Shown here: positions 1 to 17,427 of the stretch, piece after piece
Position numbering within the stretch: the stretch's first letter is position 1
How the letters are laid out: each line of letters starts with the position of its first letter
Virus record (IMG/VR): IMGVR_UViG_3300030433_001259
Coordinates: 1 to 38,442 of that record
Strand: one strand, 5' to 3'
Origin: a virus
Taxonomy: Duplodnaviria; Caudoviricetes
DNA length: 38,442 nucleotides
Translations under genes and position numbers: made by a program
Notes under the pieces: model-generated
The model's database searches: none
Told to the model about the DNA's origin: nothing
What the model saw: the letters and a program-made list of their open reading frames with translations, nothing else

Positions 1-347
1 CCACGATTACGTATAAAAGAATAATTAAACAAATACTCCCAACCATTAGCATTACCAATAGTGACGTTATCTGCAGTGTTTCTTTCAGTACCTGTGTACC
101 ATGTCTGTCTCTTCGTCTCATAATCAAATCTTGCTATTTTACGCACGCCTAACGTTAAGTTGTAATCGTACGCGTTAATTTCAGTTATATCTTCATAGCC
201 TTTGTTTATAGCCCTATAATCTTCTCTCTCAACAAACGACGTATTCATAGACATCGATGTATAGAAAGTTGAGTATTGGAAAAACTCTTTTATCTGTGCT
301 GTACTTACAGTACAAACTAACAGAAATAATATTATTATTTGTTTCAT
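1..347 (-). CDS. Secreted or outer-membrane protein with signal peptide (partial, runs off the left edge; not in the ORF track)
   Basis: Manual translation from ATG at 347: MKQIIILFLLVCTVSTAQIKEFFQYSTFYTSMSMNTSF...YNLTLGVRKIARFDY...GWEYLFNYSFIRNR, open to the window edge. Basic-hydrophobic-STA|Q signal peptide; starts 1 nt after the upstream stop. Confidence 0.75.
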   Translation of the reverse strand, partial: MKQIIILFLLVCTVSTAQIKEFFQYSTFYTSMSMNTSFVEREDYRAINKGYEDITEINAYDYNLTLGVRKIARFDYETKRQTWYTGTERNTADNVTIGNANGWEYLFNYSFIRNR

Positions 348-348
348 T

Positions 349-957
349 TTATATATCTAAATCTTTACTATCTAATAATGTATATGTGAAGCTATTACCC
401 CACTTATCTCTAGCTACTCTACATATATCCATAAACTCATGCCAATCATCATTAGCTGCTATCACTTGACAACCAGCTGACCATTTGTCTACCTTAGTAG
501 ATTTTTTACCACCCCACTTAGTTGCTCTATGTATATTAATTCCAAACAAACCTGTTTGAGTATTATCATCACTTAAATCAAACTTACCATCTTTGTTAGC
601 ATCTCTATATACTGTAACAGGACCATTTTGTCCTAACGCTTCATATCTACCTTGATGTAATCTAATTTTATGAGAGCCGCGATACTGCCCTTCCTTCAAG
701 ACGGCCACACCTTCCTTTCTCATTATATTCTCCACCCAATACTTACCGGGATCAGTGGTGCAATCGTAACAATAAAACTCCCATTGGTCATCACATTTAA
801 ATGATAATGTAATTTTATCGTCAAACTTGTTTGTTACTTCGGTACCAGTGCCTGAGTTTCTTACACCGACTATGTTAATATTATAGTCACCTGTTTCAAA
901 CCATTTGTACCCTTTGGCCTTAACGCCTTTCTCTATTATTTCTTTTGTTAATTTCAT
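349..957 (-). CDS. L,D-transpeptidase (YkuD)-like peptidoglycan enzyme, candidate endolysin
   Basis: C-terminal GINIH-x13-WSAGCQV resembles the YkuD His...S-x-G-C catalytic motif. 202 aa, no signal peptide. Confidence 0.65.
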   Translation of the reverse strand: MKLTKEIIEKGVKAKGYKWFETGDYNINIVGVRNSGTGTEVTNKFDDKITLSFKCDDQWEFYCYDCTTDPGKYWVENIMRKEGVAVLKEGQYRGSHKIRLHQGRYEALGQNGPVTVYRDANKDGKFDLSDDNTQTGLFGINIHRATKWGGKKSTKVDKWSAGCQVIAANDDWHEFMDICRVARDKWGNSFTYTLLDSKDLDI

Positions 958-1580: not shown

Positions 1581-3269
1581 TTATACGTTTATATATCCAC
1601 TTATTGTCATTTGAAAATAGTGAGAAGAGCTTCCAGATGTTGAATCTTTTTTTATAAAACAAAATAACATATCATCTTCATCAAAAGTGTTATTAGAACT
1701 AAAATCCTCAGTGTGACTCCAAGTTCTTAGAGTAGTTGAAGGAGTTATAGTAGAGGTATTAAACATATCTGTTAATGATATACTAGTTGCGTTATTCGTC
1801 ATAGCACTATGTTTAATGTAAAATTTAAACGGGTCTGTTGTTCCAGTTACATATCCGTGAACTTTTATATTTGTTATTACACCACTTGCTGGCGCTATCA
1901 TGAAATGCGCAGCAGCATCATATTGGTTTATAGAACTTATAGAGCTATCAGAATTACCCCAATTATCACCAGTTGCTCCTCTAAATGGAAAATAATAAAC
2001 CGTGCTAGAGTTGTTATTTGTTTTATAACCACCTATAGTTTGCATCCAAAACTGTCTGCCGGAAGCATCATTTGTTAAAGCAATATAACCACTAGCATCA
2101 GCTAATTGTTGAATTCGGTTACCACTTATGTCAATAGGCGCTTGTATTATAATATCATTTGTACCATTATCTGTATCTTCACTTAATGATATTTTACCAG
2201 GTCCATTCGAGTTTCCAAACACTTCTAATATATTGCCTAACCCACTTTGTATTCTTGCCATAGAGGCTGTATCCTCATCAAAATTTACTATACCATCAGT
2301 TGAATCTATTGTTATTGTTCCATCAATATCTAACGTTAAGTCAGCATCTGTACCATCAACATCTACAGTACTTATTATAGTATTACCTTTAGTGTTTGTA
2401 GCTATTTTAAAATAATCGTTAAAGCTTGCTCCAGCGGCTTCATATAAAAATAAATTAGAAGTGCCACCAACGTTGTTAAGCCTTGCAAACGTTACACTGT
2501 TGTCTTGAAAGTTTACGTCACCGTTTCTATCAGCATCTATGTTAATTAAACCGTCAGCATCTAAAGTTAACGTTCCCGCTGATGTACCCGCCCCATCCGT
2601 AGTAGAAAGTGTTGTTGCTCCATTAGCTGCAACAGAGGCTTTAAAATAATCATCACTACTAGCCCCAGCTCTTTCGTATAAATAAAAATCAGTTGACGTA
2701 GCAGCGTTACCAGCTAATTTTGAAATTAAAGTATTAGTTCTTAATGAAGTACCGGTTCCCTCAACATCTCCTCCATAAAATTGTATTTCACCAAATGTTC
2801 CTGCGCCGGTAGGTCTTCCAGCAGAGATATATATATCACCACCGTTTTTATCAGTTTGACCAGCGTTAGCTGGAGCGCCTTGTATTTTAAATACACCTCC
2901 ATGACCATCGCTATGCTCTGCTTTTTGTATTATCGACATTGAGTCATCATCAGCTCCTATTATTAGTGATGGATGTTGAAAGTATAAATTGTCTTCAGCC
3001 TGTATAGCACTAGATCCATTACCTGTTAATACTCTATTACTAGTAAGGCTACTAGCGCCACTACCTCCATTTGCTACAGGTAATATACCAGTTACTTCTG
3101 AAGTTAAATCTATTGTGCCAGCTGGATTATCTGATTTAACTATTTTATTGTTTGAATCTAGGCCAAGATTACCTCCACTAGCAATTGTACCAGTGGAGAT
3201 ATCTTCTAAGTATACGTCGTTACGAAATCTTGATACAAAATCGTATATTTGTTGGCCTATCCATTTCAT
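1581..3269 (-). CDS. Tail fibre/spike-like receptor-binding protein
   Basis: 562 aa, Gly/Ser/Thr/Asp-rich. Fibre-type motif VTGILPVANGGSGASSLTSNRVLTGNGSSAI, internal repeat LYE-x-AGAS-x-x-DYFK, and a distinct C-terminal globular domain. Confidence 0.65.
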   Translation of the reverse strand: MKWIGQQIYDFVSRFRNDVYLEDISTGTIASGGNLGLDSNNKIVKSDNPAGTIDLTSEVTGILPVANGGSGASSLTSNRVLTGNGSSAIQAEDNLYFQHPSLIIGADDDSMSIIQKAEHSDGHGGVFKIQGAPANAGQTDKNGGDIYISAGRPTGAGTFGEIQFYGGDVEGTGTSLRTNTLISKLAGNAATSTDFYLYERAGASSDDYFKASVAANGATTLSTTDGAGTSAGTLTLDADGLINIDADRNGDVNFQDNSVTFARLNNVGGTSNLFLYEAAGASFNDYFKIATNTKGNTIISTVDVDGTDADLTLDIDGTITIDSTDGIVNFDEDTASMARIQSGLGNILEVFGNSNGPGKISLSEDTDNGTNDIIIQAPIDISGNRIQQLADASGYIALTNDASGRQFWMQTIGGYKTNNNSSTVYYFPFRGATGDNWGNSDSSISSINQYDAAAHFMIAPASGVITNIKVHGYVTGTTDPFKFYIKHSAMTNNATSISLTDMFNTSTITPSTTLRTWSHTEDFSSNNTFDEDDMLFCFIKKDSTSGSSSHYFQMTISGYINV

Positions 3270-3489: not shown

Positions 3490-6400
3490 TTATTGGTGAG
3501 CATAACATCTTTTGTTCTCGTTCTCTGTTTTATTCTTACATCTTTTACCATTCTTTTTAATACCAGTACATCTATATTCTTTGATACCATCACCGTCTCT
3601 ATCCATACCGTCAGTAAATGCCATGTGGTGATAACATAAGAATTTTTTATCTTTAGTAGGTTGCGACATTATACTACATCTCTTACCATTTGATTTTATA
3701 CCAGAACATCTAATGCTTTTGTAACCTTCATCTTTTAGTCTTTGCTCTTCTTTCTTTTTCTCTAACTCTTTTTCTTTTTTCTTTTGTTCTTTTTCTTTTT
3801 CTTTTTCTATTTTCTTTTTTTCTTCTCTTTTTGTTTCAGCGGTTTCTTTTGCAGCTTCAAGCTCTTCATCTTCAACACCAAGCTCCCACATGCTCCAACC
3901 CATAGCCATCATAACTCTTTTCCAAGTTTCATGGCTACCTGTTACAGCTTCTTCTAAGTTGTTAGCTTTATTAACTAATCTAGCTAAAGGTATATTAGTA
4001 GCACCTTCAATTATGTAAGCCCACTTTCTAACTTGAGGACTTTCAATTCTTAACCCTAATTCATCAGACACGCCCTTATCGTAGTACTCTGAATAAAAAG
4101 CGTTTACTATTTTTCTTACCTTACTACCTATTGGTGGTGATAGATCAAGTGTTGCCAATGCTACTTTCTCAACCTTTGTTTGACCGTATTCAGCTTCCTG
4201 CTGTATGTTCCATTGTATAACTGTGTTTTTAAGCGTAGACACTAACGCTCCATATAAACCCGTACCTCTTAAAAATGAATCTAAAACGTTGTTAGCTACT
4301 CTATCTGTTTTATTTTTTATTTCTTCTTCATCATCTCCCCACATTATAAATGCTAATGCTGATTGCAATGCTGAGAACACAATGTTTTGAACAAGACCAT
4401 AGTAAAGTATTTTAGATACATTAGTTTTTATATCACCTCTATTGTTAACAAGATCTGATAAAGCTTTCTTAGTTAATCTACCATATTGCATTGTAACGTT
4501 TTGAAAAGCTAAAACAAACCTACCTAATAATGTAGCTTGCTGTTGTGATATTAAATCTTCTCTTGAAGACTGCTGTGTTTCTTCTGCTATTTCCTGAAAG
4601 TCTAACATTGCTTGCTCGTTAGCTTGTTCAGGTGTCATACCTTTTTTTATGTAAGTATTGTATCTGTTTCTATAAAAACTAGCGCCACCAAAAGCTATGG
4701 CAAAACTATCCGCGATTTGAGTTGGTGTAAAACCAAACTGTAGTAAAGCTCTTAATAAAGTTCTAGGACTATAACCATTTTCAGCAAATGATTTTGTTAG
4801 TTCCGATGCTGATACATCTGTTTGTAAACCACCTCTTCTTTGTTTTAGTTGATCAGAGTTAAATAGCATAACAAAGTCAGCCCAAAATTGAGGTTGATTA
4901 GCAAAGGCCCCAGCGGCTTTAAATAAATTGTTATCACCCCAATTTATAAAGTTAACTGTAGATATAGTTTGAAGTAAAGCGGATCTCATATTAAAGAACA
5001 TGATAGCTCCAATAGAATCATTAATCCACTCTGTAAAGAAGTTAACAGTTCTATTACCACCAGATTTTCTATTACCACCGTTTTCCATACGGAATAATAT
5101 ATCTTCTAGCGCTTCTCTAAACCAAGAGCCATAGACAGCTTCTATTTTATTTATGTTTTGTTTACTTAGTATTATATTTTTATTTTCAATCCACTCTTGT
5201 AAAAACTCTTTTCTACCTATTTTATCAACTATATTTCTTAAATCAGTTGGTATAGTTTCCATCATCCAATTTTCACTAGGCTGTAAGTAACCTTCTTTTC
5301 TTTTACTTAATATAGATAATGCATCAGCAAATTTCTTTATATCAGGATTACTATTAACATAGTCTACTAATTGTTTTTGTTTTTGAACTGACAGACCTTC
5401 GATATCAAATCCAGATTTATCCCATAAATAAACTCTAATAGCTGTATCATTTGTAAACTCTGTTCCTTTAATCTTTTTATTTAGTTTTATTTTTGGAAAA
5501 CGTTTTTTAAGATTTTTAAAATCGTTAACCATACTTTGTTTATAAGCGTTCCAGTTTCTGATACCTCTAGCAAATGGCTTAAGAAGGTACTCTGCTAGAA
5601 ACTTTAAATCCTCTTCTCCTTGTTTGCCTTTACCTATAAAGTAATACAACAAACCTTTAAAATCCTCTGCAGATGGTGGTATATAATAATCCCATCTACC
5701 TTTGCCTTTACCTCTTTTTTTAGCTTCAGGCCCAGATATAACTTCATCAAATGGTATACCTTTTTTACGCTCAAGCATTTTGTTAAAGTCTATGCTTGCA
5801 TTTTTACTAAACTTAACTCTAGCTTGTACAACTTTAGATTTAACATCTAGTTGATCTAACACTTCTCTCACAGCTTCAACGTTAGCCAAAGCATCGTCTA
5901 CAAAATATAAATCATTATAACCTTCAGCAAACTTTTCTAACATCCATTTTGCTTTCGCCTCACCAGTACTGTTAGCTAAACCAGTTATATTTTTTAAAGG
6001 TATATTTAAACCTTGTGATTTTAAAAACTCATGTATAGCTTTGTCTGACGCTTGAGGTCTAGCGGTTAAAACAAACATATCTTTAGTACCGAACTTAGCA
6101 GCTCTTTCTTTTGCTTTGTCAAGTAATGGCCCAGGTGTTCCGTCAACCACATCATTAAATTCTGAAAAGTCAAACTTACCACCCTGTTCTAATATTTCCG
6201 CTCCTTGCTCCGCAAACTCTGTAGCATCTATTCTACGTTTTTCATAACCTGAAACAAAGTCGTTCATCTTGTTTACAAGAGTCTTTGGCATAGGGCTTTC
6301 TTGAGTTAACTTATCTGTGTTAACCTCCATAAATCTTTTGCCAAACATCTCTTTAAATGTAGGCTTATTATTTTGTACGGCCTCGTGATTACGTTTAACT

Positions 6401-9400
6401 ATAATATCTAACAATGATCTTTCTTTTCTAGCCCTATTACGCTCTAAGGCTACATCTAATGAAGTATTTACAAATAACATACTAACATCATACCCTTTGG
6501 ATTGAAACTCATCTACGAGCTTTTGCATTTGTTTTGCAGAACCACCAGTACCATCTACAATAACACCGTTGCCTTCGCCTTGATACTTCATCATTTTGCC
6601 TCTAGCTATTTTTCTAGCTTGAGCTCCTAACTTACCTAATGTACTTCTTTGTTCTTTAGTTAAGTCTCGCATATCAGCAGGTAGTCCTGAGTTTTTCTTT
6701 AACCACTCTAATGATATATCTGAGTTTACAATTTTAAAGCCCATACCTTCTAGGCCTAGTTTATTAATCACGTTACCTTTACCGCTACCAGCTCCACCAG
6801 CTAAGAATATAACTTTACGTTTTGGTTTAGGTGTGCCATCAGGATTAGGCATTGTTACTCTAACACCTGACTTAGTAAAACCTAATGTATCATCAAAATC
6901 AAATGTTGACATACCTCTTGTCTTACCAGTCTTACTCTGCATTATTCTATTACTAATAGCTTGAGTTAAGTTATTAGTTGTGTTTATATCCGCTGAAGAT
7001 CTCTCTACTGCCGCTGAACTACCATCATTATTTATGTCATAATACTGTTTGAAAGTTTGCTCTCCAGTTCCAAATCTAATAATACTACTAGTACTTATAC
7101 CATCTTCCTTACTAAAACCTTGATTTAATCTAACAACCTCAGTGTCAAAATATCTATCTAAAAACGACATAAATATATTCCAATTTTTACCCATGCTTTT
7201 AGCTCTACCAGCTCTTTCTAAAAATTGATTATAAAAATAGTCTAAAGCTATAATTTTATAATTCTGCATAGCTAAATCATAAGCTGTATCAAAATCGTAA
7301 CCAGGTTCTATTATAGATTCAAATATATATAAATAAGCTAGAGTTGCCTGCATGGCATGCTCCCATTCGTAGAGTTTAAATTTACCTTCAGGATTCTTTT
7401 TTGATGGCTTCATTCTACCTCCTTTTGGGTTAGGTGAATAACCTATAACCTCACCCATTCTATGTATATGGGTTACGTCCATACCAACCATTCTAAGGAA
7501 ATTACCCCAACCTCTAATTGTGTTTTCTTTATTCTGCTCAGCAGTATATTTTATTTCGTCAACGTTATTCTCGTCATACACAGGTTGATCAGAGTTTTTT
7601 ATAGATTCATTTATTCTAGACCAAAATTGTTGATGCGCGGATAGGTTAATCTCATTAAACCTTTTTACCGTCCCGTCTTTATCTGATTTTCTCATTTGAG
7701 CAGCGGTATTTCCTAATGCCCCACCAAAAGTCTGGTGTTTAAATTTAGCACCAGGTCCAGTAAAAGGCTTACCTATTTTTAACGGAGGTAAACCTATTGC
7801 TTTTCTTTCAGCTTCGTTTCTAACAAACCATTGATTACCTCTTTTAATATAAAACTCTCCAAGTCTTTGCTTGTAGTAGTCTTTTGTTTTTATTTGTTTG
7901 CCTTCTACTTCTATAACTATATCACCACCTTTAGATAGTACTCTTTTACTGTGATAAAAATACTGATAGCTCATAACGTTAGGTGGTAAAACTGATATCC
8001 AAAGTGGAGCTACAAAATCAAAAAACTCGTCTATATTTTCTTTAGTACTAAAATCGTACATCGGCTTATAACCCAATGTCTTTAAAAGCATATTCATAAA
8101 CTTCCTAGTAGCGTCGTCTTGAAACTCAGGGTTTATTTCTTTTATAGTTTCATTTGTATTAATAAACTCCCCACCAACTTGCTCTGCCTTAGATCCTTTA
8201 GCAAATAGTATTCTAGACTTACCACTAGCAACATCTTCAATTGTTTTCTTATCAACGCCTTTTCTAGCAGCATCTAATCTTAACTCTTGATTAGCAGCGG
8301 CGGTAGCTAATTGAATAGCAAACTCTCTTATAGCGCCATCATATCTTGTTCCACTTTGAAAAGAACCATCTTGATTAATACCGAATATATCTAATATATC
8401 TTGATTAGGAACTTGATCCATTTTAGCATATAAAGCTTTCTGACCACCAGTTCTTTTAGCAAATATTTTTTGACCACCAACGGTTTGCTTTCCAGCTGTA
8501 GAAGCCCTATCAGCTATCTTTTCATAAAACTGTCCAAACTTAGTTCTTACTATCTCTGTCGATGTAGCATTTTGGTCTTGCGCTTCTGGTAGCAAATCAA
8601 TTAAGTTATTATTCTTAGCTAACTCTACTATTTTATTTCTAGCGTTAGTTCTTTGTTCGTTATTTAAATCAGATTTTTTAACTAGCTTTTGTGTAGGTAT
8701 ACCAAAAGCATTACCAACATCTGCTAATACACCATTTAGTTTTCCTTTTATAACCTCTTGCTTTATTTCTTTATACGATATAGCACTACCGTCTTTTTTC
8801 TTTAATTTTATATTAGCCTTTTTAATAGCAGATTCTATATTAGCTATTACATTATCTGGTAAATTAAGTATTTGATCTCTAACTAATATCTTATTATCTT
8901 GCTCTTCTTGTAATACACTATTAGTACTACCTGTAGAGTTGTCAGTAAATTGATAACCAGCTTCTTCAAGTGCTGCTTGTGATTGAGTTACTAAACCTGT
9001 TTTTTGTAAAGCTCTATTTAATACTTGTCCATATTTTATAGGTAAACCTTTTGGCATTTGAACGTAAGCTCCAAATGGAACACCTGTGCTAGGATTCCAT
9101 CTTTCTGTTAGTAAATGTAATTCTACATAAAACTCTTGTTGCAAGTCCTCTAGCGCAGCTGCTACAAAATCAGTTCCTTTTAAAGCAGCTTTACCTTTAG
9201 CATAAGCTTGAGCAGCGTATTTATTAGCAGCAGCCATGTTTGCTACAAAAAGTTTTTCACGCATTCTTCTTGTTACAGCGTCTTTTAGTTTATCATTAGG
9301 TATATTATTTTTCTTAGCATTATCTAAAATCTCTTGATAAACCTGTTCGTTAATCTCAGCTGGATCCATCTCGGTTCCAGTAGACCACCCACCTGTTTTG

Positions 9401-12400
9401 GATTTTTTAACATTACTAGTAGGATTGTCTGTAAAAGCTTTCAATATCATTTCAATAGTCTTGTCATCTACTTCAACGCCTGCTTGTATAAATTTAAAAG
9501 TAAGATCTTCTTTGAACTTTTTCTCAAAAGCTTCTTTCTGTTCTTTTTGAAACTTCTTTACTTTATTAGAAAGCTCTATCATTTGATCACCAGCTTTTAT
9601 TTTATCTTCTAAAGCTTTCATTAGACTAGCTGATAGATCACCACGCTGCATGCTATCATTAAAGTCTTTTATAAAATCATAAACATCTTTACCAGTATTT
9701 AACGTTATGTCGACACCTATACTTCTAAATAAATGCTTTATAATAGCACCTATCTTTTGCATTAAAGACTCTTTATAAGCAAGCTCTCCACTAGCCATAG
9801 CGTCTAAGAATAAAGCCATGGCCTCTTCAGACTGAGTAGCTGCATCTTCATTCATATAGCTCTCAAGTCTTTGTCTAAATTGACTGTCTCTAATACCTTT
9901 AGGATCAATAGACATTAAATAACTTTTAAACGACTCGCCTAATGCTATTCTTAATTCAGGCGTATTAGATAACGCTTGACTTAAATACCAATGAAAAAAT
10001 TCATGAGACGCAACATTCTCTCCACGGTTTTTAAAAGAAGCACTCATGTTTATTATTATATGACTCTTCTCTCCTTTACCTAACATATCTGCTGGTATAA
10101 AATAACCATGCGTTGTTTGGAGCTCTTTAAATATATCTTCTATTTTTTGTCCTTCATCTATTGTTTTACCATCTTTATCTTTCTTTATACCGATGTTAGT
10201 AACTTCGTTACCTTCTATATCAAAAAACTTTCCGTTTTCTTCAGTTAACCCAAATAACTCTAACAAACTTTTCCTAGTTTCTTTATCTCCTTTTTCTTCT
10301 GTAATCTGTATTTTACCAGTAAGTCCCTCTTTTTCTATAATGGCTTTTACTTTTTTAACCTGTTCGTTGTAGGCTCTTTTAGTTTTTCTTTGTATTATTT
10401 TAGCTTCAATATCACCGATTAATTTTTGTTTTTCAGCTTCTAATTTTTGTTTTCTTTTTAATTCTTCTTCTGTAAGCTTTCTTCTTTTGCCATTTAGTTC
10501 TGCTAATTCATCATTAATGGCAAGTAATCTTTGTCTACCTTCATCATCTAGTCCACCATCTTTCTCATCTACAGATAGTATATCAAGTTCATTAGCTACT
10601 ATAGTCTTGCCAGTAGTTAACTTATTAGTACCATCAGCTTCAATAGTGTGTCTTAATTCTATACCACCAGTTAACTCTATTTTTCTAGATTCTAATTCTT
10701 TTTTCTCAAGAGTTTCAGCTTCAGTTAAAAACCTTTTTCCATTAAGTTCATCTAACCTATTGTTTATAGTTAATAACTCTCCCTTTTGATTTTCATTTAA
10801 CTTGCCACCATCTTCTAGTATATCTATCTCAGCCATTGATGATTCAGCTAAACGATACGTTTCAAGTAAAGTTCTATATTCATCAGCAGCTACATAATCG
10901 TTATATGTTTTTATATATATTTTATTATTAGGGTTGTTAAAAAAACCATCGCTCTCTAGTCTTTTTAGGTATCGATCCATTGCTTCTTTTGAATTATACC
11001 TTATAGCTGTTCTATTGTTTAAACTAACTTCATAGTATTTACCTTTTCTACCAGTTACTTGACTGACAACTGCACCACCACCAGTAAAAGCTAATCCCAT
11101 GCTACCAATACCTATCCACATTTCTTGCTGAGAACCCCAGTCTATACCAACTGGGTTGCCATTAATGTCATACTCAAGGAAGCCAGCTAGCAATGGAGTG
11201 CCATGCCCTTCCATTAAATTTTGCCAAGGTATATTAATATATTCTTCACCTAATTCCCCAAGAATACCGTGCCAACCACCTCTTTCAGCCATCCATTCTG
11301 TAACTTCTGCCGCAGTTTTAAAACCTTTTTCCCTCATAAAATGACCTAATGTGAGCCTTTTATATACATCACTATCAAAAACCATATCACCATATCTACC
11401 ACCAATTTTAGTAACTCCAGGTATATTAAGTATTCTTCTACCCATACCAGGTATTAAAAATCCTATAGACTCAGTCATGTACTCACCAAATGTCATACCA
11501 TACGACCTAGCAAAGGCCTCAGTAAATGCCTCGCCTTTTTTAAGACCTAACTCAATACCTTCTGGATCAGAAGCGGTAATAGCATCTATACCGTCTATTA
11601 AGCCGTCAGCATCGGTACTAAATGACCATATAACCTCATCTGTCATTCTTCCTATGGTACCGTTTATGGTATGACCTAGTCCACCAATTGAAGATCTTGC
11701 GGTAATGCTTGTTACAAATGCTGTAAAGTCGATAGCCTTATCAGCTATTTGATACCCAGTCGACAACTTCATACCATTACTTAAAACTAGTTTACCAGTT
11801 TTATCTACAGTTACATTAGCGAGCTTCGCTGTCATACTCTTTTTTATACCAGTCTTTATAGTAGTTTTTATTAAACTACCAACACCGCTAGTAGAAGCAA
11901 ACTCAATAACAAATGCAGCGGATTTTTTAGCTATTTTACCGCCGTTATACCAAGAAGATAACTCTGAAACTCTATTGTCAGACTCTTGCTTCATTGCGTA
12001 CGCTATTAATATTTGTTCTTCTAGCTCCGTTCTTTCGCTAGGATCTTTGTCAACTAATCTTTTTAATTTTTCTTTTCTTTTAGCTTCTGGCACCCAACCA
12101 AAAAATGGCACCCACTCATAATTTGGTCCACTAGTAAAGCCGTTCCAAAATCTTTCTAATCTTGTATCACCTAAATCAGAAAGAGACATAGGAGCTTCAA
12201 TAATTTTACTTGCCATATTTCTAGCAAGCTGCATATCCGCTATAAAAGAGTCGTTATTACCAGTGCCTCTAAGCCATCTTTGACCTAATAAATATGTAGC
12301 TATTTCTAAATTTTTACTTGGATCAAAACCACCTTCTATTTCATGCCACTTACCATAACTTTGACCATTTGCGTTTGCATATGTTTCGTAATACCTACCA

Positions 12401-15105
12401 CCGTCTTTAATAGTTTGCTCGGCCCATGATATAGATTGTTCAGTTACGCCATATTTTTCAGCCGCATATTCATATTGTTTAACAGGATCGTTTGGATATT
12501 TGTTTCTTTCTTTTTTCCAAAAATCAGAGTTAGAGTACAAGTAATACATAATATTACTTTCATATATAACAGCAGGTTGTCTAGTAGATCCATCTGCATA
12601 AAACACACTGCCATCATTGTGTTTATTACCAACGTCTTTAGGATAATAAGCGGTAAGGCCTTTCATTTGCGTGTTCCCAAACCTGTCTGTATAAACTCTA
12701 TTGTAACCAAAGTCAATTCTGTTTTGTAAATCTGTCATTGATAGCTTCTGCCAAAAGTCAGAGTTTTCTAGATTTTTATTATAAGCCTCAGATTGAATTT
12801 TCATTCTATCAAAAAAATAATCATAGTATTCTTTTACAAATCTTGCTCTGACATTTGCGTCTAAAAATTTTTCAGGGTTTTCTCGCTCAGCTTGTTTTAA
12901 CGCGCCTTTTAAGTAATGCTGTAGCATTAAAAATCTATCTTGCATCTGAACATTGTCTTGTCTTGAGAATCCAGCGGCATCTAATTGTTCTGCTATTTCT
13001 TTTAATTTTTCTACTGGAAATACGCTATACCCAAAAGATCTACTTGTCCAGTTATTTTCTTTAATATATTCGTCCCATAACTTCTGATTATTTTCAAACT
13101 CTAACTCTTGAAACTTAGCTTGTCTTTCAATAATATAAGGATGCTCTTGAAGAGCTTTGTTTAAAGCGTTGTTGTAATCAAGATAAAATTCATAATGTAC
13201 TCCGTCCCAAGCCTCTTGTAGTTCTTTATTATATTGTTTTAAAAATTCTTCTGCTGCCTCTTTAGTTACGTTACCGTTTATGTCTTTTGGCAGTTTTAAA
13301 GAAAGGCCCATATGTAAAGCGTGTATTTCTTCTGCTTGTATTTTAAAATTAGAATAAAGATCTGGTGTTGTTAAATTTACGCCATCTAATAAATAAATAT
13401 CTGAGTAAACAGATGACAGGCCTTCTTCTACAAGTGGTGTAACCTCAGTTTGAATTTCGTTTATTCTTTCTATATAATCTGGATCATTAAAGTATTCTTC
13501 TGCAAATTTATTTCTTTGCTCTTCACTTTTTAACTTAAAGTTTTCTATAGCCTCATTATTTAACTTAGCATCAAACTCAAGATACTCATTTGTGTTAGGC
13601 ATGTAAGTTTCTGAATCGTAATCTTCTTTTGTGTAATCTCTATTAAAAAGTCTTATGCCAGAATCATCAAACTCTTGCTCATCTATCTTTGATTGTTTGT
13701 AGTTTATTTGTGCTGGATTTAAATCTAGTCTATCATCACTAAGTAGAAAAGATCTATTTGCTTTATCTTGTTGTCTAAAAATATAATTAATCTCATCCCA
13801 ATCAGAGTTTACTGCATAAGCTTTACCAGGACCTTGTGGTAAATGCTTAGGAAAAACACCTCCTTCGGTAGCACGAAAACTACCATCAAAAAAGTTTACA
13901 TTGCCATATTCGCTTTTATAATAATAGGCATCGCTAGTAAACCACTTGTCGTTTGGGTGATGTTTACTTTTGTCTCTATTTTTCCAGTATTCATTAAAGC
14001 TTCTCCAATCGTGACTTCTAACTATGTGATAAGTATTGGTAGCACCGTTATAAAAAACAACAGCATCTGTTTTTATTTTAAAATCGTCAGTTAAAGACAA
14101 GTCCTTAGTATGTATTTCTTTTTGGTATTTGTCAATAATTTGATCGTATTCTAATCCAACAGCCTCTATTTTACTTTGCTCAAGTTGTTGTAAGTAACCT
14201 TTGTTTATTTCGTTTCTTTCTGTAATAAAGTTTACTCTTCTTTCGTATTCAGTAATTTCAAGTTCAGTGACAATACCATCTTTATTTAAATCATATATTG
14301 GCATACGTTTATTAGTATCTTCAAAATTATAATCTACTTTATTGCCTTTTATTATATTTTTATTATTTATATTTCTTCTTAAATTAAACTCTTCAAGTTC
14401 TTTTTGTGTTCTAAAATTAAACTCATCTAGGTTTACATTGTCCCAACCAAAGGCTTCTACCATAGCATCCTTTTTGCCAACAAGATTATATAAATCATTA
14501 AGCTCTTCAGTGTTACCTTCGAACAAACTTTCTACATCTTGAGGATTTTTTAGTTGATTTTCTGGATTTTTATATTGATCAAATAAATAAGCGTCTTTTT
14601 TAAGTATTTCTTTTTCTACGTCTGGATAATTTTGATATGAGTTTTCTATTATTAATTTAGCGTTATTACTTTTTATAGTCTCAAGATCTAAAGTATCAGT
14701 AAGAGCGCTATAACCTGCAATTCCAAATTTACTATCTACTGTACTCGACAGTAATTCCGAAGAAGATTTTACCAAATCTAATTCCGTATTCCCTTCTATT
14801 TGTTGCTGATTTTCTTGAGACAGATCCGTCTCTTGAGTTTGGGGTTGTTCCACCCCTATGTCCTTTCCCGGCTCTTGAGTTTTTAATGAGCCAACCCACT
14901 CTTCTATTTTAACTAAATCATCTTCAGTTAATTCGTTTCTTTTAGGAGTGAACGGAGTAGACATGTAAGATTTTGTAGTTGGATCATCTGTTACTAGTAC
15001 AGGGTTATATTGTCCATACTTTTCAAAGAAAGCGTCCTCCTTGCCAGGAGCAACGTTTCTATATTTTACTACACCGTCCATGGTGAATTTATATCTTTTA
15101 TTCAT
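3490..15105 (-). CDS. Giant (3871 aa) putative internal virion/ejection polyvalent protein
   Basis: Last of three genes after the tail genes, the ejectosome position in podoviruses. Motifs: EF-hand loop DLNKDGIVTELE, HEFFH, sigma70-r2-like EDLQQE...RWNPSTGVPFGAY, HAD FDFDDTL/LTAR/FVDD, P-loop GGAGSGKG, C-terminal C-x-G-x4-G-x-R-C fingers. Confidence 0.75.
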   Translation of the reverse strand: MNKRYKFTMDGVVKYRNVAPGKEDAFFEKYGQYNPVLVTDDPTTKSYMSTPFTPKRNELTEDDLVKIEEWVGSLKTQEPGKDIGVEQPQTQETDLSQENQQQIEGNTELDLVKSSSELLSSTVDSKFGIAGYSALTDTLDLETIKSNNAKLIIENSYQNYPDVEKEILKKDAYLFDQYKNPENQLKNPQDVESLFEGNTEELNDLYNLVGKKDAMVEAFGWDNVNLDEFNFRTQKELEEFNLRRNINNKNIIKGNKVDYNFEDTNKRMPIYDLNKDGIVTELEITEYERRVNFITERNEINKGYLQQLEQSKIEAVGLEYDQIIDKYQKEIHTKDLSLTDDFKIKTDAVVFYNGATNTYHIVRSHDWRSFNEYWKNRDKSKHHPNDKWFTSDAYYYKSEYGNVNFFDGSFRATEGGVFPKHLPQGPGKAYAVNSDWDEINYIFRQQDKANRSFLLSDDRLDLNPAQINYKQSKIDEQEFDDSGIRLFNRDYTKEDYDSETYMPNTNEYLEFDAKLNNEAIENFKLKSEEQRNKFAEEYFNDPDYIERINEIQTEVTPLVEEGLSSVYSDIYLLDGVNLTTPDLYSNFKIQAEEIHALHMGLSLKLPKDINGNVTKEAAEEFLKQYNKELQEAWDGVHYEFYLDYNNALNKALQEHPYIIERQAKFQELEFENNQKLWDEYIKENNWTSRSFGYSVFPVEKLKEIAEQLDAAGFSRQDNVQMQDRFLMLQHYLKGALKQAERENPEKFLDANVRARFVKEYYDYFFDRMKIQSEAYNKNLENSDFWQKLSMTDLQNRIDFGYNRVYTDRFGNTQMKGLTAYYPKDVGNKHNDGSVFYADGSTRQPAVIYESNIMYYLYSNSDFWKKERNKYPNDPVKQYEYAAEKYGVTEQSISWAEQTIKDGGRYYETYANANGQSYGKWHEIEGGFDPSKNLEIATYLLGQRWLRGTGNNDSFIADMQLARNMASKIIEAPMSLSDLGDTRLERFWNGFTSGPNYEWVPFFGWVPEAKRKEKLKRLVDKDPSERTELEEQILIAYAMKQESDNRVSELSSWYNGGKIAKKSAAFVIEFASTSGVGSLIKTTIKTGIKKSMTAKLANVTVDKTGKLVLSNGMKLSTGYQIADKAIDFTAFVTSITARSSIGGLGHTINGTIGRMTDEVIWSFSTDADGLIDGIDAITASDPEGIELGLKKGEAFTEAFARSYGMTFGEYMTESIGFLIPGMGRRILNIPGVTKIGGRYGDMVFDSDVYKRLTLGHFMREKGFKTAAEVTEWMAERGGWHGILGELGEEYINIPWQNLMEGHGTPLLAGFLEYDINGNPVGIDWGSQQEMWIGIGSMGLAFTGGGAVVSQVTGRKGKYYEVSLNNRTAIRYNSKEAMDRYLKRLESDGFFNNPNNKIYIKTYNDYVAADEYRTLLETYRLAESSMAEIDILEDGGKLNENQKGELLTINNRLDELNGKRFLTEAETLEKKELESRKIELTGGIELRHTIEADGTNKLTTGKTIVANELDILSVDEKDGGLDDEGRQRLLAINDELAELNGKRRKLTEEELKRKQKLEAEKQKLIGDIEAKIIQRKTKRAYNEQVKKVKAIIEKEGLTGKIQITEEKGDKETRKSLLELFGLTEENGKFFDIEGNEVTNIGIKKDKDGKTIDEGQKIEDIFKELQTTHGYFIPADMLGKGEKSHIIINMSASFKNRGENVASHEFFHWYLSQALSNTPELRIALGESFKSYLMSIDPKGIRDSQFRQRLESYMNEDAATQSEEAMALFLDAMASGELAYKESLMQKIGAIIKHLFRSIGVDITLNTGKDVYDFIKDFNDSMQRGDLSASLMKALEDKIKAGDQMIELSNKVKKFQKEQKEAFEKKFKEDLTFKFIQAGVEVDDKTIEMILKAFTDNPTSNVKKSKTGGWSTGTEMDPAEINEQVYQEILDNAKKNNIPNDKLKDAVTRRMREKLFVANMAAANKYAAQAYAKGKAALKGTDFVAAALEDLQQEFYVELHLLTERWNPSTGVPFGAYVQMPKGLPIKYGQVLNRALQKTGLVTQSQAALEEAGYQFTDNSTGSTNSVLQEEQDNKILVRDQILNLPDNVIANIESAIKKANIKLKKKDGSAISYKEIKQEVIKGKLNGVLADVGNAFGIPTQKLVKKSDLNNEQRTNARNKIVELAKNNNLIDLLPEAQDQNATSTEIVRTKFGQFYEKIADRASTAGKQTVGGQKIFAKRTGGQKALYAKMDQVPNQDILDIFGINQDGSFQSGTRYDGAIREFAIQLATAAANQELRLDAARKGVDKKTIEDVASGKSRILFAKGSKAEQVGGEFINTNETIKEINPEFQDDATRKFMNMLLKTLGYKPMYDFSTKENIDEFFDFVAPLWISVLPPNVMSYQYFYHSKRVLSKGGDIVIEVEGKQIKTKDYYKQRLGEFYIKRGNQWFVRNEAERKAIGLPPLKIGKPFTGPGAKFKHQTFGGALGNTAAQMRKSDKDGTVKRFNEINLSAHQQFWSRINESIKNSDQPVYDENNVDEIKYTAEQNKENTIRGWGNFLRMVGMDVTHIHRMGEVIGYSPNPKGGRMKPSKKNPEGKFKLYEWEHAMQATLAYLYIFESIIEPGYDFDTAYDLAMQNYKIIALDYFYNQFLERAGRAKSMGKNWNIFMSFLDRYFDTEVVRLNQGFSKEDGISTSSIIRFGTGEQTFKQYYDINNDGSSAAVERSSADINTTNNLTQAISNRIMQSKTGKTRGMSTFDFDDTLGFTKSGVRVTMPNPDGTPKPKRKVIFLAGGAGSGKGNVINKLGLEGMGFKIVNSDISLEWLKKNSGLPADMRDLTKEQRSTLGKLGAQARKIARGKMMKYQGEGNGVIVDGTGGSAKQMQKLVDEFQSKGYDVSMLFVNTSLDVALERNRARKERSLLDIIVKRNHEAVQNNKPTFKEMFGKRFMEVNTDKLTQESPMPKTLVNKMNDFVSGYEKRRIDATEFAEQGAEILEQGGKFDFSEFNDVVDGTPGPLLDKAKERAAKFGTKDMFVLTARPQASDKAIHEFLKSQGLNIPLKNITGLANSTGEAKAKWMLEKFAEGYNDLYFVDDALANVEAVREVLDQLDVKSKVVQARVKFSKNASIDFNKMLERKKGIPFDEVISGPEAKKRGKGKGRWDYYIPPSAEDFKGLLYYFIGKGKQGEEDLKFLAEYLLKPFARGIRNWNAYKQSMVNDFKNLKKRFPKIKLNKKIKGTEFTNDTAIRVYLWDKSGFDIEGLSVQKQKQLVDYVNSNPDIKKFADALSILSKRKEGYLQPSENWMMETIPTDLRNIVDKIGRKEFLQEWIENKNIILSKQNINKIEAVYGSWFREALEDILFRMENGGNRKSGGNRTVNFFTEWINDSIGAIMFFNMRSALLQTISTVNFINWGDNNLFKAAGAFANQPQFWADFVMLFNSDQLKQRRGGLQTDVSASELTKSFAENGYSPRTLLRALLQFGFTPTQIADSFAIAFGGASFYRNRYNTYIKKGMTPEQANEQAMLDFQEIAEETQQSSREDLISQQQATLLGRFVLAFQNVTMQYGRLTKKALSDLVNNRGDIKTNVSKILYYGLVQNIVFSALQSALAFIMWGDDEEEIKNKTDRVANNVLDSFLRGTGLYGALVSTLKNTVIQWNIQQEAEYGQTKVEKVALATLDLSPPIGSKVRKIVNAFYSEYYDKGVSDELGLRIESPQVRKWAYIIEGATNIPLARLVNKANNLEEAVTGSHETWKRVMMAMGWSMWELGVEDEELEAAKETAETKREEKKKIEKEKEKEQKKKEKELEKKKEEQRLKDEGYKSIRCSGIKSNGKRCSIMSQPTKDKKFLCYHHMAFTDGMDRDGDGIKEYRCTGIKKNGKRCKNKTENENKRCYAHQ

Positions 15106-15145: not shown

Positions 15146-16669
15146 TTAAGCAAACTCGTTCTCGTCATCTTTTATTTGACGTTTTGTTTTGTTTGTATTT
15201 CCTACTTTAACATTATAGTTATTTTCTGCGTATTGAGTATAATATTCTGCTAAAGTTTCTTTTAATAGCTCTTGGTTTTTCATTATTCTATCAACTATTA
15301 TAACAGCATCTCTACCTGTTATAGGTGTTTTAGGTGTTGGATCGTTAGACTTTGCCTGGTTTTGCGTTATACCTAAGTCTTCATAACTACCTTTTGATAA
15401 TGCCTCAGTTAAATCTTGTTTCCAAGACGTAGCTCCCCAGTGCTTATGTGTGGCAAGTGAACTTAAGTTAGCGTTTTCAGAGTTTAAAACATTATTCATA
15501 AAGTTCATTTTAACAGCGGCTCTATTAAAAGTTTTTCTTTCGTCACCAGCGATAAATGCATCAGCATTAGCAACTTCTTTTTCTATTATAGTTTTTATTT
15601 TATTTTGACTATCTCTATCTATCTTATGCTTATCTACTAGCTTTTTAATATCTTTCATGGTCATGTATTTACCATCTCCAGTTACTTTACTAGATTTTTT
15701 CTTTGTATCTTCACTGCCAACGCTAGATTTTTCTTGTTGCTTCTTAGTAAATGGTGATATCATTTTGTTAGGAGATATACCGGTTTTAGTCATCTCCTCA
15801 TCTGTCATAAACTCTTCACTACCGCCTTCTCCTCCAGCAATTAATAGACCTCTATAAGGATCATCTTTCATTCCACTTACTGTTTGTAGCTCACTTTTTT
15901 TTGATATATTTTCTTTTTTTTGAGCACTTTCTTGCCAATCTTTTTTAGAGTCAGCAACAAATTGTTTATAACCCTCATTAGTATTAGGATAACTTACGCC
16001 AAATATAGTTGTTCTAGTTTTACCATCAGCAGATATAGTGAATCTAGCATTACCCTCCGCGTTAGGAGTCGTGTCATTCCAAGCTTCGCTATATGTAGCT
16101 GTTCTCATTTTACCATTTTTATCTGTATACTTAGGAGTGCCATCGTCGTTATATAAAAACACATTAGCGTCAAATGTATCAGGATTTTGAACAGTAAAAT
16201 CTACTCTATATATTATATCTCCATTTTCATCTGTTTCTTTGTTATCGTTGTTTAAACAATTTTCTATACAATTTTGTACGTTCTCTGGTAAATCTTCACA
16301 ATCGTCTAAGCATGTTTCAAGCATTTCGTTCTTGTCTTCATTGTCTTGTATTATCTTTTTACCATCTTCTTCTAAATCTTTTTCAGCTTGTGCTCTACCT
16401 CTTTTATTTAAATACACATAACCAGCTCTTTTCTTTTGAAGTCTTTTAACTAGCTCTTGATAATCTTTATCACTTAAGTCTTTGCCTTGGGCTTCTAACT
16501 CAGCTTCCATTAACTCGTTAAACTTTTTATTTCTTTTTTGTACTAAATCACCTATACCCTCAGCTAAATAAGCACCAACTTTAGTTGCAGCCTCTGATGC
16601 TGCTAACTTACCAGTGTTTTTTGCTTGAGCTACGTCTCTTGCTCCCTGTATTAATTGTGAATCTGCCAT
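15146..16669 (-). CDS. Putative internal virion (ejection) protein
   Basis: 507 aa, Ala/Gly-rich N-terminus followed by helical, charged sequence; sits between the small and the giant ejection-like genes. Confidence 0.55.
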   Translation of the reverse strand: MADSQLIQGARDVAQAKNTGKLAASEAATKVGAYLAEGIGDLVQKRNKKFNELMEAELEAQGKDLSDKDYQELVKRLQKKRAGYVYLNKRGRAQAEKDLEEDGKKIIQDNEDKNEMLETCLDDCEDLPENVQNCIENCLNNDNKETDENGDIIYRVDFTVQNPDTFDANVFLYNDDGTPKYTDKNGKMRTATYSEAWNDTTPNAEGNARFTISADGKTRTTIFGVSYPNTNEGYKQFVADSKKDWQESAQKKENISKKSELQTVSGMKDDPYRGLLIAGGEGGSEEFMTDEEMTKTGISPNKMISPFTKKQQEKSSVGSEDTKKKSSKVTGDGKYMTMKDIKKLVDKHKIDRDSQNKIKTIIEKEVANADAFIAGDERKTFNRAAVKMNFMNNVLNSENANLSSLATHKHWGATSWKQDLTEALSKGSYEDLGITQNQAKSNDPTPKTPITGRDAVIIVDRIMKNQELLKETLAEYYTQYAENNYNVKVGNTNKTKRQIKDDENEFA

Positions 16670-16680
16670 ACTATATTATT

Positions 16681-17427
16681 TTATTTATTTCCTGAGTTTC
16701 CTGAGTTTAGTAATTTTTTTAAGTCTTCCATGCTTAAGCCAGAGTCAGAACTAGAATCTGTACTTGATTTAGCTCCTGATTCTCCAAATATACCACCAGG
16801 CTGAACCGAGTCTCCTAGAAAACCAGCTGTCATTTGTGCTATACCAGTTATACCACTTGTTATTGCCCCAAACTTAGCTTGCTGTGCAGCGCCTTCTTGT
16901 TGAGCTGCAGCAGCGGTTCTTTGTTGAGCCATACCTAATAGTGTTGCTGTTTTTTCTCTTTCTAAATCTCTAGAATATATTTCACCTTGCCTTTCCATTG
17001 TTTGTATTCTACTAGCTTCTTGTTGCCTAGCCATTTGATTAGCTCTCTCTTGTTGACCTATGCTAGCCGCTTGTTTTTGAGAGGCTATTTGTCCTTGTTG
17101 AGCTAACGACTGAGCTAAATTAGCTATACCACTACCTCCAGCAGCTCCAGCTAAATTAGACATTATATTAGCCTGAGTTTGTTGAAATGATTGTCTTTCA
17201 AACTCAGCTTGCCTCTGATCAATGGTTAGATCTTCCATTGTATTTTCTAAATTAAGATATGGATTACTAGTATCAAGATTAGCATAGATATCTTCTAGCT
17301 CCTTCATTTTAGCTTCTTCTTTTTTTCTTTGCCTAGCAGCTCTTTTTCGCTCTTTGTTTGCTGATATAGCGCCGAATATACTTGAGCCGATTGAAGAGGC
17401 TGCTCCTATTAAAGTAAGTGGGTCCAT
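16681..17427 (-). CDS. Putative small ejection/DNA-transfer protein (role analogous to T7 gp14 or P22 gp7)
   Basis: N-terminal hydrophobic Gly/Ala/Ser helix MDPLTLIGAASSIGSSIFGAISA, a basic stretch, Gln/Ala coiled coil and a C-terminal Gly-rich amphipathic helix. Confidence 0.65.
   Translation of the reverse strand: MDPLTLIGAASSIGSSIFGAISANKERKRAARQRKKEEAKMKELEDIYANLDTSNPYLNLENTMEDLTIDQRQAEFERQSFQQTQANIMSNLAGAAGGSGIANLAQSLAQQGQIASQKQAASIGQQERANQMARQQEASRIQTMERQGEIYSRDLEREKTATLLGMAQQRTAAAAQQEGAAQQAKFGAITSGITGIAQMTAGFLGDSVQPGGIFGESGAKSSTDSSSDSGLSMEDLKKLLNSGNSGNK

What the first reader, a model, noticed from the sequence alone, without database searches (positions are those of the whole stretch)
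5820..6910. P-loop kinase nested inside a HAD phosphatase: a PNKP-like module within a virion protein
Seen: HAD motif I FDFDDTL (~6883-6903) is followed about 30 aa later by a zeta-toxin/AAA_33-like kinase (IFLAGGAGSGKG at ~6775-6810, VNSD, VIVDGTG, FVNTSLDVALERNRAR). HAD motifs II (VLTAR, ~6064), III (AKAKW) and IV (FVDD, ~5895) resume only after the kinase, which therefore occupies the C1 cap position. Established: T4 Pnkp pairs a P-loop 5'-kinase with a DxDxT 3'-phosphatase in tandem to heal tRNA cut by PrrC. Inference: a nested, particle-delivered end-healing or anti-defence enzyme; alternatively a zeta-like kinase acting on UDP-GlcNAc.
Basis: partly seen in the sequence, partly recalled or inferred. 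Interest (0 to 1): 0.8.

Follow-up and report, generated by a model that had tools for sequence, protein, structure and literature searches.

The report
Phage phosphatase with plug-in kinase socket
A giant, likely injected protein of a marine flavobacterial-type phage carries a complete kinase spliced into a loop of a phosphatase; relatives show that the phosphatase is the fixed part and that the loop also accepts other cargo domains, so the pair probably acts as two separate early-infection enzymes and not as a T4-style tRNA-repair enzyme.

Summary
Observation confirmed at every coordinate. A 199-aa P-loop kinase sits in the turn of a cap β-hairpin of an intact HAD phosphatase inside a 3,871-aa protein at the ejection-protein position. 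The predicted halves rejoin as one fold, closest to the T4 Pnkp 3'-phosphatase (Z 13.4). The PNKP reading is only partly supported. Sampled by the protein's C-terminal domain, the HAD is in 80 of 80 relatives and the kinase in 19. The same loop holds four other kinds of insert. The kinase also occurs tandem, about 1,000 aa away, or without the HAD; the HAD occurs as a free early-region gene. The kinase lacks the Arg of the essential Pnk Asp-x-x-Arg motif (0 of 138) and three zeta UDP-GlcNAc contacts. No dedicated RNA ligase was found in 30 near-complete relatives; 23 have a DNA ligase. Stand-alone kinase relatives in T4-like phages carry a head-targeting-like leader (97 of 97). Best reading: a core early 3'-type phosphatase with a passenger hydroxyl kinase of unknown substrate. 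This scan noted the nesting twice before on other DNA; I found no paper describing it.

The parts
3490..15105 (-). Giant 3,871-aa multi-domain protein (P0001), last of three genes at the ejection/cargo position
   Evidence: same gene order as Elemovirus, whose 3,694-aa gene there is annotated structural protein; crAss001 cargo genes follow the muzzle gene (PMC10172136)
6841..6918 (-). HAD N-terminal piece (aa ~2730-2755): strand S1, motif I, first strand of the cap hairpin
6883..6903 (-). HAD motif I FDFDDTL (D2736 predicted nucleophile, D2738 predicted acid/base)
   Evidence: D, D, T invariant in 74 rows
6244..6840 (-). Inserted 199-aa P-loop kinase (aa ~2756-2954; ends uncertain by a few residues) in the turn of the cap β-hairpin
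   Evidence: distance 224 vs 25 aa in relatives; Pfam Zeta_toxin/AAA_33 (8); strands E23-28 and E229-234 flank it in the model, E23-26 and E32-35 in the uninterrupted model
6775..6810 (-). Walker A (K2776), followed by Gly in place of Ser/Thr
   Evidence: Gly in 42, Ser in 63, Thr in 33 of 138 (110)
6718..6729 (-). VNSD; D2796 = predicted general base (CthPnk D38, zeta D67); no Arg at +3
   Evidence: invariant in 40 rows
6544..6564 (-). VIVDGTG (D2851, T2853); zeta Arg120 position is Gly
6418..6474 (-). Lid with R2889, R2893, R2896, matching CthPnk R116/R120/R123
   Evidence: alignment to 4gp7 (52); RNxxR in 138 of 138 (110); PMC3902929
5821..6243 (-). HAD C-terminal piece (aa ~2955-3095): rest of cap, motif II T3014/R3016 (6072-6058), motif III K3051 (5958-5944), motif IV D3070/D3071 (5904-5893)
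5803..5814 (-). KFSK junction-type motif directly after the HAD; possible module border or cleavage site (no cutting shown)
   Evidence: motif within 28 aa after the HAD in 41 of 94 relatives against 0.03 expected; pattern chosen after seeing the data
3856..5703 (-). Conserved C-terminal region of the giant protein, used to sample the family independently of HAD and kinase
   Evidence: covered in about 220-240 of 245 relatives; alignment A4
9991..10005 (-). HEFFH zincin-like motif (aa 1701-1705), candidate processing protease
   Evidence: HExxH in 80 of 94 relatives; aligns weakly to HEIFH of Elemovirus gp21, E 0.049 (97)
15146..17427 (-). Two upstream genes (248 aa and 507 aa), likely the other ejection proteins
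   Evidence: T7_gp14 weak, E 0.007, below cut-off; gene order
19418..25888 (-). Muzzle-like tail protein marking a crAss-like virion module
   Evidence: crAss_MUZ_C E 1.6e-5, just under cut-off; phrog_14478 E 4e-108 (9)

Best explanation
A 199-residue P-loop kinase is inserted in the turn of a cap hairpin of an intact HAD phosphatase inside a giant phage protein that is likely packaged and injected; the phosphatase is the fixed part, the kinase is an optional passenger, and the two probably act as separate early-infection enzymes rather than as one T4-type tRNA-repair enzyme. Steps. (1) Shown: the nesting, the intact catalytic motifs and purifying selection on both domains. (2) Predicted: the two HAD pieces fold into one Rossmannoid domain, with the kinase hanging from the hairpin tip, so the loop tolerates any domain whose ends lie close together. 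(3) Inferred: the protein is ejected with the DNA and may be cut at short junction motifs, releasing HAD-plus-kinase as one unit. (4) Inferred: the HAD (D2736, D2738, T3014, K3051, D3070/3071) removes a phosphate, most likely a 3'-phosphate from a DNA end or a nucleotide, with the phage DNA ligase as the plausible follower. (5) Inferred: the kinase (K2776, D2796, three lid Arg) puts a phosphate on a hydroxyl, most likely of a soluble nucleotide or nucleotide-sugar-type metabolite in the manner of zeta/AvrRxo1, to disarm or redirect the host. It belongs to a clade of its own, not to canonical zeta or Pnk.
For: HAD in 80 of 80 and kinase in 19 of 80 relatives sampled by the C-terminal domain. 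Four non-kinase kinds of insert at the same loop in 6 sequences: ART-PolyVal-like (L085, P0142; E 9e-4, under cut-off), a domain shared with a jumbo-phage protein (P0071; E 6e-8), 67 aa (L098, L102) and 88 aa (L307). Kinase also tandem (P0045, P0076, L298), about 1,000 aa upstream (P0065, P0066, P0068, P0071) or filling the slot with no HAD (L229, L230). Nested but P-loop-dead kinase beside an intact HAD (P0085). HAD as a closed stand-alone ORF in 27 of 80 metagenome loci; 14 short-ORF loci were read and showed it among small early-type genes with no kinase or RNA ligase seen beside it. In G052 the giant protein lacks the HAD and the only copy is the free gene. No Arg at D+3 in 138 kinases. 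Rnl1 0 of 30 with two positive controls ringing; RtcB 0 of 30; all 9 RNA_ligase hits are the DNA ligase ORF (128, 129); DNA ligase in 23 of 30. Best profile match of the kinase is zeta, E 2.6e-9. T4-like relatives: L/I-x-E before the domain in 97 of 97 (motif from PMC9026906) and no HAD of this family in 80 of 80 flanks. Median dN/dS 0.20 (kinase) and 0.19 (HAD) over 455 pairs.
Against: Both domains have Pnkp enzymes as top fold matches: kinase CthPnk Z 17.2 against zeta 14.1; HAD T4 Pnkp Z 12.6, Pnkp1 11.7, next non-Pnkp 11.2. The kinase lid matches CthPnk residue for residue. In the kinase tree the non-nested forms arise inside nested clades, so nesting looks old and long kept, and the tandem forms stay beside the HAD with no junction motif between. 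No substrate was tested; virion location rests on gene order and relatives. The 80-locus sample came from an alignment of HAD-bearing loci and is the best 80 of 561, so it is biased. The G052 swap is one genome. Gly after the Walker A Lys in the window's protein may weaken Mg binding (Ser22 is essential in CthPnk).
Confidence: 0.5

Rival explanations
1. Coupled end-healing enzyme (works like PNKP): 5'-kinase plus 3'-phosphatase acting on the same broken nucleic acid, more likely nicks in the incoming phage DNA sealed by the phage DNA ligase than tRNA.
For: Top fold matches are Pnkp domains for both halves; CthPnk-type lid, Asp base and Thr kept; DNA ligase in 23 of 30 near-complete relatives; kinase stays in the same protein as the HAD in nearly all full-length cases. 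Recalled, not checked here: mammalian PNK also lacks the D+3 Arg.
Against: No D+3 Arg in 138; no dedicated RNA ligase in 30 genomes; kinase missing in 61 of 80; each domain persists without the other; T4-like relatives are not linked to this HAD.
Confidence: 0.3
2. True zeta-type UDP-GlcNAc (or UDP-MurNAc) kinase that drains wall or surface-polysaccharide precursors; the HAD is unrelated or removes the product later.
For: Best profile hit is zeta 1gvn over 120 positions with identical spacing from the (D/E)GT motif to the GY motif; Asp67 and Thr118 positions kept; zeta-like kinases were proposed as wall-weakening cargo of polyvalent and MuF proteins (PMC5512222); a BFVD relative is labelled UDP-N-acetylglucosamine kinase.
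Against: Arg120 is Gly/Ala/Asn/Ser wherever read (135 of 138); Glu100 aligns to Arg and Thr128 to Leu in the window protein (my reading); the profile match to zeta stops before the lid, which matches CthPnk instead; fold Z lower than Pnk and PSTK; draining wall precursors at entry would cost a lytic phage its host.
Confidence: 0.1
3. Protein- or tRNA-directed pair: a PSTK/Kti12-like kinase and a small-cap HAD protein phosphatase that reverse or mimic host defence phosphorylation.
For: PSTK 3a4l Z 15.7 and Kti12 Z 13.7; small open cap as in HADs with large substrates (structure 43; established HAD cap logic, recalled); HAD appears among early host-takeover-type genes.
Against: Protein-directed HADs rank lower (Lem4 Z 9.8, MDP-1 Z 9.2) than Pnkp; no tRNA-binding domain seen next to the kinase.
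Confidence: 0.1

Closest known systems
T4 polynucleotide kinase-phosphatase (PseT/Pnkp; PDB 1ltq, 5uj0) and Pnkp1 of the Pnkp1/Rnl/Hen1 complex (4xrp)
   Same: P-loop kinase and DxDxT HAD in one chain; best fold match of the HAD (Z 12.6-13.4).
   Different: Nested, not tandem; kinase optional; no D+3 Arg; no RNA ligase partner; embedded in a 3,871-aa late-module protein.
Clostridium thermocellum Pnk (4gp6, 4gp7)
   Same: Best fold match of the kinase (Z 17.2); lid Arg trio, general-base Asp and Thr80 position kept.
   Different: Essential Arg41 absent in 138 of 138; essential Ser22 is Gly in the window protein; partner is a HAD, not the metallophosphoesterase/ligase of bacterial Pnkp.
Zeta/PezT UDP-GlcNAc kinases (1gvn, 3q8x, 2p5t) and AvrRxo1 (4z8q)
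   Same: Best sequence-profile match (E 2.6e-9); Asp67 and Thr118 positions kept; AvrRxo1 fold Z 12.5 (39).
   Different: Arg120, Glu100 and Thr128 positions not kept; different lid; no antitoxin gene seen; a domain of a virion-module protein.
Phage polyvalent proteins (Iyer et al. 2017, PMC5512222)
   Same: Giant multi-domain, likely injected protein with a zincin-like HExxH motif, ART-PolyVal-like and zeta-like kinase cargo, variable domain content.
   Different: The main text names no phosphatase (0 hits for the word) and the passages seen show no domain nested in another; no LPD or MPTase Pfam model scores. Its external architecture lists were not seen.
T4 internal head proteins with capsid-targeting sequence (PMC9026906, PMC5694885)
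   Same: Stand-alone relatives of the kinase in T4-like phages start with a short leader ending in L/I-x-E (97 of 97).
   Different: Here delivery is by fusion into a giant ejection-type protein of a podovirus-like module.

Membership tests
HAD superfamily phosphatase | Motifs I-IV (DxDxT, T/S, K, DD) intact | tested here: met
   invariant in 74 rows
HAD superfamily phosphatase | One Rossmannoid fold from both halves | tested here: met
   predicted model aligns 3..372 to 5uj0, Z 13.4, rmsd 2.3 (39)
HAD superfamily phosphatase | Phosphatase activity | not testable with these tools
   needs an assay
RNA-repair Pnk/Pnkp (T4, Cth) | P-loop kinase fold with lid arginines | tested here: met
   Z 17.2 to 4gp6 (39); RNxxR in 138 of 138 (110)
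RNA-repair Pnk/Pnkp (T4, Cth) | Asp-x-x-Arg acceptor motif | tested here: not met
   Asp kept, Arg in 0 of 138 (110); motif defined in PMC3902929
RNA-repair Pnk/Pnkp (T4, Cth) | P-loop Ser/Thr after Lys | tested here: inconclusive
   Gly in the window protein and 42 of 138; Ser/Thr in 96 (110)
RNA-repair Pnk/Pnkp (T4, Cth) | RNA ligase in the same genome | tested here: not met
   Rnl1 0 of 30, RtcB 0 of 30, 9 of 30 RNA_ligase hits all on the DNA ligase ORF, in relatives at least 90% complete. The window's own record is only 38 kb (22), and only these three models were tried.
RNA-repair Pnk/Pnkp (T4, Cth) | T4 phosphatase substrate residues beyond the core motifs | not tested
   no paper found; no residue-level structural alignment returned
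RNA-repair Pnk/Pnkp (T4, Cth) | 5'-kinase and 3'-phosphatase activity on nucleic acid | not testable with these tools
   needs an assay
Zeta UDP-GlcNAc kinase | Pfam Zeta_toxin above cut-off; Asp67, Thr118 | tested here: met
   35.2 bits against 22.3 (8)
Zeta UDP-GlcNAc kinase | UDP contacts Arg120, Glu100, Thr128 | tested here: not met
   Gly, Arg, Leu in the window protein by the profile alignment; no Arg at the 120 position in the 135 of 138 read
Zeta UDP-GlcNAc kinase | Cognate epsilon antitoxin gene upstream | tested here: not met
   the kinase is an internal domain of a 3,871-aa ORF (1, 4)
Phage polyvalent protein | Large protein with several unrelated enzyme domains and variable content | tested here: met
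Phage polyvalent protein | MPTase/LPD hub domains | tested here: inconclusive
   HExxH in 80 of 94 (82) but no Pfam model scores
Phage polyvalent protein | Packaged in the virion and injected | not testable with these tools
   indirect only: gene order, leaders of T4-like relatives

The most novel reading that the evidence does not exclude
The HAD cap hairpin is a reusable socket through which an abundant group of marine phages swaps injected enzymes, and the kinase is the founding member of an undescribed class of virion-delivered hydroxyl kinases, shared by T4-like and crAss-like marine phages, that inactivate a host nucleotide signal or cofactor in the first minutes of infection, working beside a near-universal early phosphatase that the phage can deliver either from the particle or as an early gene.
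Probability: 0.3. Interest if true: 0.75.

Novelty: new variant of a known kind. Interest (0 to 1): 0.5.

Why it matters
A whole enzyme living in the cap of another, at a loop that has taken at least five kinds of insert, is an unusual route for building injected multi-enzyme proteins. The family is large (about 1,000 stored stretches estimated in the viral collection) and uncultured. Both domains are small, fold well in prediction and have catalytic residues to mutate, so the substrate question can be tested directly. A result would name a new first-minute function for marine Bacteroidota-type phages and for the stand-alone kinases of T4-like marine phages such as HTVC008M, now annotated as hypothetical. 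It also corrects two easy labels, PNKP and UDP-GlcNAc kinase, neither of which passes its own motif test.

Tried and rejected
Chance or chimera: rejected. Kinase as a replacement of the cap: rejected, the native cap remains. Giant protein as virion RNA polymerase: no DxDxD except one Asp-rich motif near the C-terminus, no Pfam or PHROG match; a complete relative encodes a sigma factor; not excluded by fold. Sequence search of the PDB gave only weak adenylate kinase and PSTK hits and nothing useful for the HAD. No cultured phage matched the HAD or the C-terminal domain. Single-sequence scan with the C-terminal domain gave 2 loci and was redone with an alignment. Pfam on 55 of 64 cargo regions gave one weak hit. 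25 GTDB hits are short MAG contigs from unrelated taxa, probably binned phage, so no host call. L229/L230 records show no HAD elsewhere but are 83% and 56% complete. The careful HAD tree did not finish; the quick tree needs 7 changes of the nested label, at least 3 forced by strong branches, with many forks open. In the kinase tree six 'noHAD' rows are proteins whose records end in or just after the module and L079 was mislabelled by my script (nested in 14); only L229 is a real HAD-less case. No complex prediction and no read mapping were run. Paper searches found no description of this nesting; one found no T4 phosphatase mutagenesis paper; 131 was seen as a listing only.
Full report
Setting. 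The window is the virion module of a crAss-like podovirus-type phage: terminase, portal, capsid, ring and muzzle-like genes, then three genes of 248, 507 and 3,871 aa, all on the minus strand. The terminase matches 87 cultured records, 86 of them phages of Flavobacterium, Cellulophaga, Tenacibaculum or Maribacter (45% to Elemovirus), so a Bacteroidota host is inferred. Elemovirus has the same gene order, ending in a 3,694-aa gene annotated as structural, which resembles ours only faintly around an HExxH motif (E 0.049). In crAss001 the genes after the muzzle encode cargo proteins found in virions (PMC10172136, passages). The window's own record is the window alone; near-complete relatives are about 60-70 kb and G017 is complete at 64,864 bp.

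Observation. Zeta_toxin and AAA_33 score above cut-off at aa 2760-2912. Two scans gave 118 loci and 96 distinct modules: 52 with the kinase nested (224 or 230 aa from motif I to the cap helix), 41 uninterrupted (25-27 aa) and 3 with another insert. The insert is thus 199 aa, about 6840-6244. In a 74-row alignment (window, 49 of the 52 nested, 24 of the 41 plain) D2736, D2738, T2740, T3014, R3016, K3051, D3070 and D3071 are invariant. Median dN/dS is 0.20 for the kinase and 0.19 for the HAD over 455 unsaturated pairs among 51 sequences. The model of the nested module has pLDDT 88; its two HAD pieces align as one domain to T4 Pnkp phosphatase 5uj0 (Z 13.4, rmsd 2.3). The uninterrupted HAD model shows a hairpin (strands 23-26 and 32-35) where the nested one has strands 23-28 and 229-234. 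The kinase sits in that turn; the small native cap is kept.

Which part is fixed. Sampling the family by its conserved C-terminal domain (best 80 of 561 hits; alignment built from HAD-bearing loci, so biased) gave the HAD in 80 of 80 and the kinase in 19 of 80, 18 nested and 1 tandem. The same loop holds other cargo: an ART-PolyVal-like domain in L085 and P0142 (E 9e-4, under cut-off; 41% alike), which also occurs un-nested in P0030 and P0034; a domain in P0071 shared with the kinase-bearing protein of jumbo phage Atu_ph07 (E 6e-8); and unrelated 67-aa (L098, L102) and 88-aa (L307) inserts. The kinase moves: after the HAD (P0045, P0076, L298), about 1,000 aa upstream (P0065, P0066, P0068, P0071), or filling the slot with no HAD (L229, L230). 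P0085 keeps the HAD but has lost the P-loop. The HAD also moves: 27 of 80 metagenome loci hold it as a closed ORF of about 180 aa; in the 14 short-ORF loci whose neighbours I read it lies among small early-type genes of the same phage group, with no kinase or RNA ligase seen beside it. In G052 the 2,975-aa giant protein lacks the HAD and the free gene is the only copy (one genome, 88% complete). Trees are quick and partly unresolved: the nested label needs 7 changes on the HAD tree, at least 3 forced; the kinases of giant proteins form one clade against the T4-like stand-alones, and non-nested forms arise within nested clades, which suggests an old insertion with later losses and moves. A short junction motif follows the HAD in 41 of 94 and precedes it in 33 of 94 relatives, against 0.03-0.04 expected; the pattern was chosen after seeing the data and after earlier notes of this scan, and no cutting is shown.

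What kind of kinase. By fold the order is CthPnk Z 17.2, 2rhm 16.1, PSTK 15.7, T4 Pnk 14.2-14.4, zeta 14.1; by profile zeta is first (E 2.6e-9) and CthPnk next (1.5e-6). The front two thirds align to zeta, the lid to CthPnk. PMC3902929 (passages) states that RNA-repair Pnks share Asp-x-x-Arg and that both residues are essential; the Asp is invariant here but the Arg is absent in 138 of 138. PMC3062530 (passages) lists Asp67, Thr118, Arg120, Glu100 and Thr128 as UDP-GlcNAc contacts; the first two are kept and the others read Gly, Arg and Leu in the window protein (my reading). So it is a hydroxyl kinase of its own clade. Its stand-alone relatives (97 of the 118 new ids among the 120 listed of 204 hits; many near-copies) all have L/I-x-E just before the domain, the T4 gp21 motif (PMC9026906 and PMC5694885, passages). 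Cultured carriers include HTVC008M, Melnitz, Atu_ph07 and Aeromonas phage 65. None of 80 T4-like loci has this HAD family within the fetched flanks; their conserved upstream neighbours (69, 61 and 56 of 80 loci) look like tail/baseplate genes (recalled, not tested).

Partner test. Among 32 relatives, 30 at least 90% complete by CheckV: Rnl1 0, with Aeromonas 65 and Atu_ph07 ringing as controls; RtcB 0, controls ringing; RNA_ligase 9 of 30, each on the ORF that scores far better as DNA ligase; DNA ligase 23 of 30. A first set of 50 records agreed. PMC7824862 (passages) says phage end-healing enzymes generally go with RNA ligases. G017 has one tRNA in the 58 of 65 kb fetched and a separate NT5C-like HAD.

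Verdict. The structure is real. It works like a Pnkp pair in fold, but fails membership on the acceptor motif and the ligase partner, and the two domains come and go separately. I favour a core early phosphatase, probably for 3'-phosphates (fold margin modest: Z 12.6 against 11.2), with a passenger kinase for a small nucleotide-type substrate (0.5); coupled DNA end healing is the main rival (0.3). The general kind, giant injected proteins with zeta-like and ART cargo, is known (PMC5512222, PMC9503650, passages). Searches found no paper on the nesting; the library lacks most subscription papers and the external lists of PMC5512222 were not seen. PMC3012670, PMC5923241 and PMC8776804 were read as passages and add only background.

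Noticed in passing
window 8956-9315 (-), aa ~1983-2015 of the giant protein: Sigma70 region 2-like stretch (Pfam E 0.004, under cut-off): possibly an injected sigma-like domain in a phage with no evident RNA polymerase.
   Followed up: partly
window 3493-3765 (-): C-terminal tail with two Cys/His repeats (DUF5763-like, E 0.008) around an Asp-rich motif, after a Lys/Glu-rich linker.
   Followed up: no
L213 and relatives (L213-L234): A second kinase subclade carries a junction-type FSK/FSE motif inside the HAD hairpin, just before the kinase; if cut, it would split the HAD in two.
   Followed up: partly
P0071 aa ~2127-2279: The insert shared with Atu_ph07 looks circularly permuted relative to the jumbo-phage copy, which would bring its ends together for the loop; the permutation was not tested.
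   Followed up: partly
L120 623-7557 (Atu_ph07): Array of paralogous genes starting M(R/K)WxxLxE, ending in a 778-aa protein whose domains, one of them this kinase, are separated by LxE-type motifs: a likely head-packaged cargo cluster.
   Followed up: no
L119 6953-9402 (HTVC008M): Stand-alone kinase directly upstream of a cytidylyltransferase-like gene, with an NT5C-type HAD a few genes on. BFVD relatives of our HAD are fused to cytidylyltransferase-like domains.
   Followed up: partly
L128 1299-4170, L129 3404-4325, L363, L367: Runs of small genes that begin with a shared MAFK(M/L)KG-type leader in this phage group, perhaps a packaging or targeting signal.
   Followed up: no
L129 4375-6181 (G017): Phage-encoded GroEL and GroES in a 65-kb genome.
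   Followed up: no
L317 20564-31648 (Elemovirus gp21): Syntenic giant protein has HExxH and a DxDxD motif but no HAD or P-loop motif.
   Followed up: no
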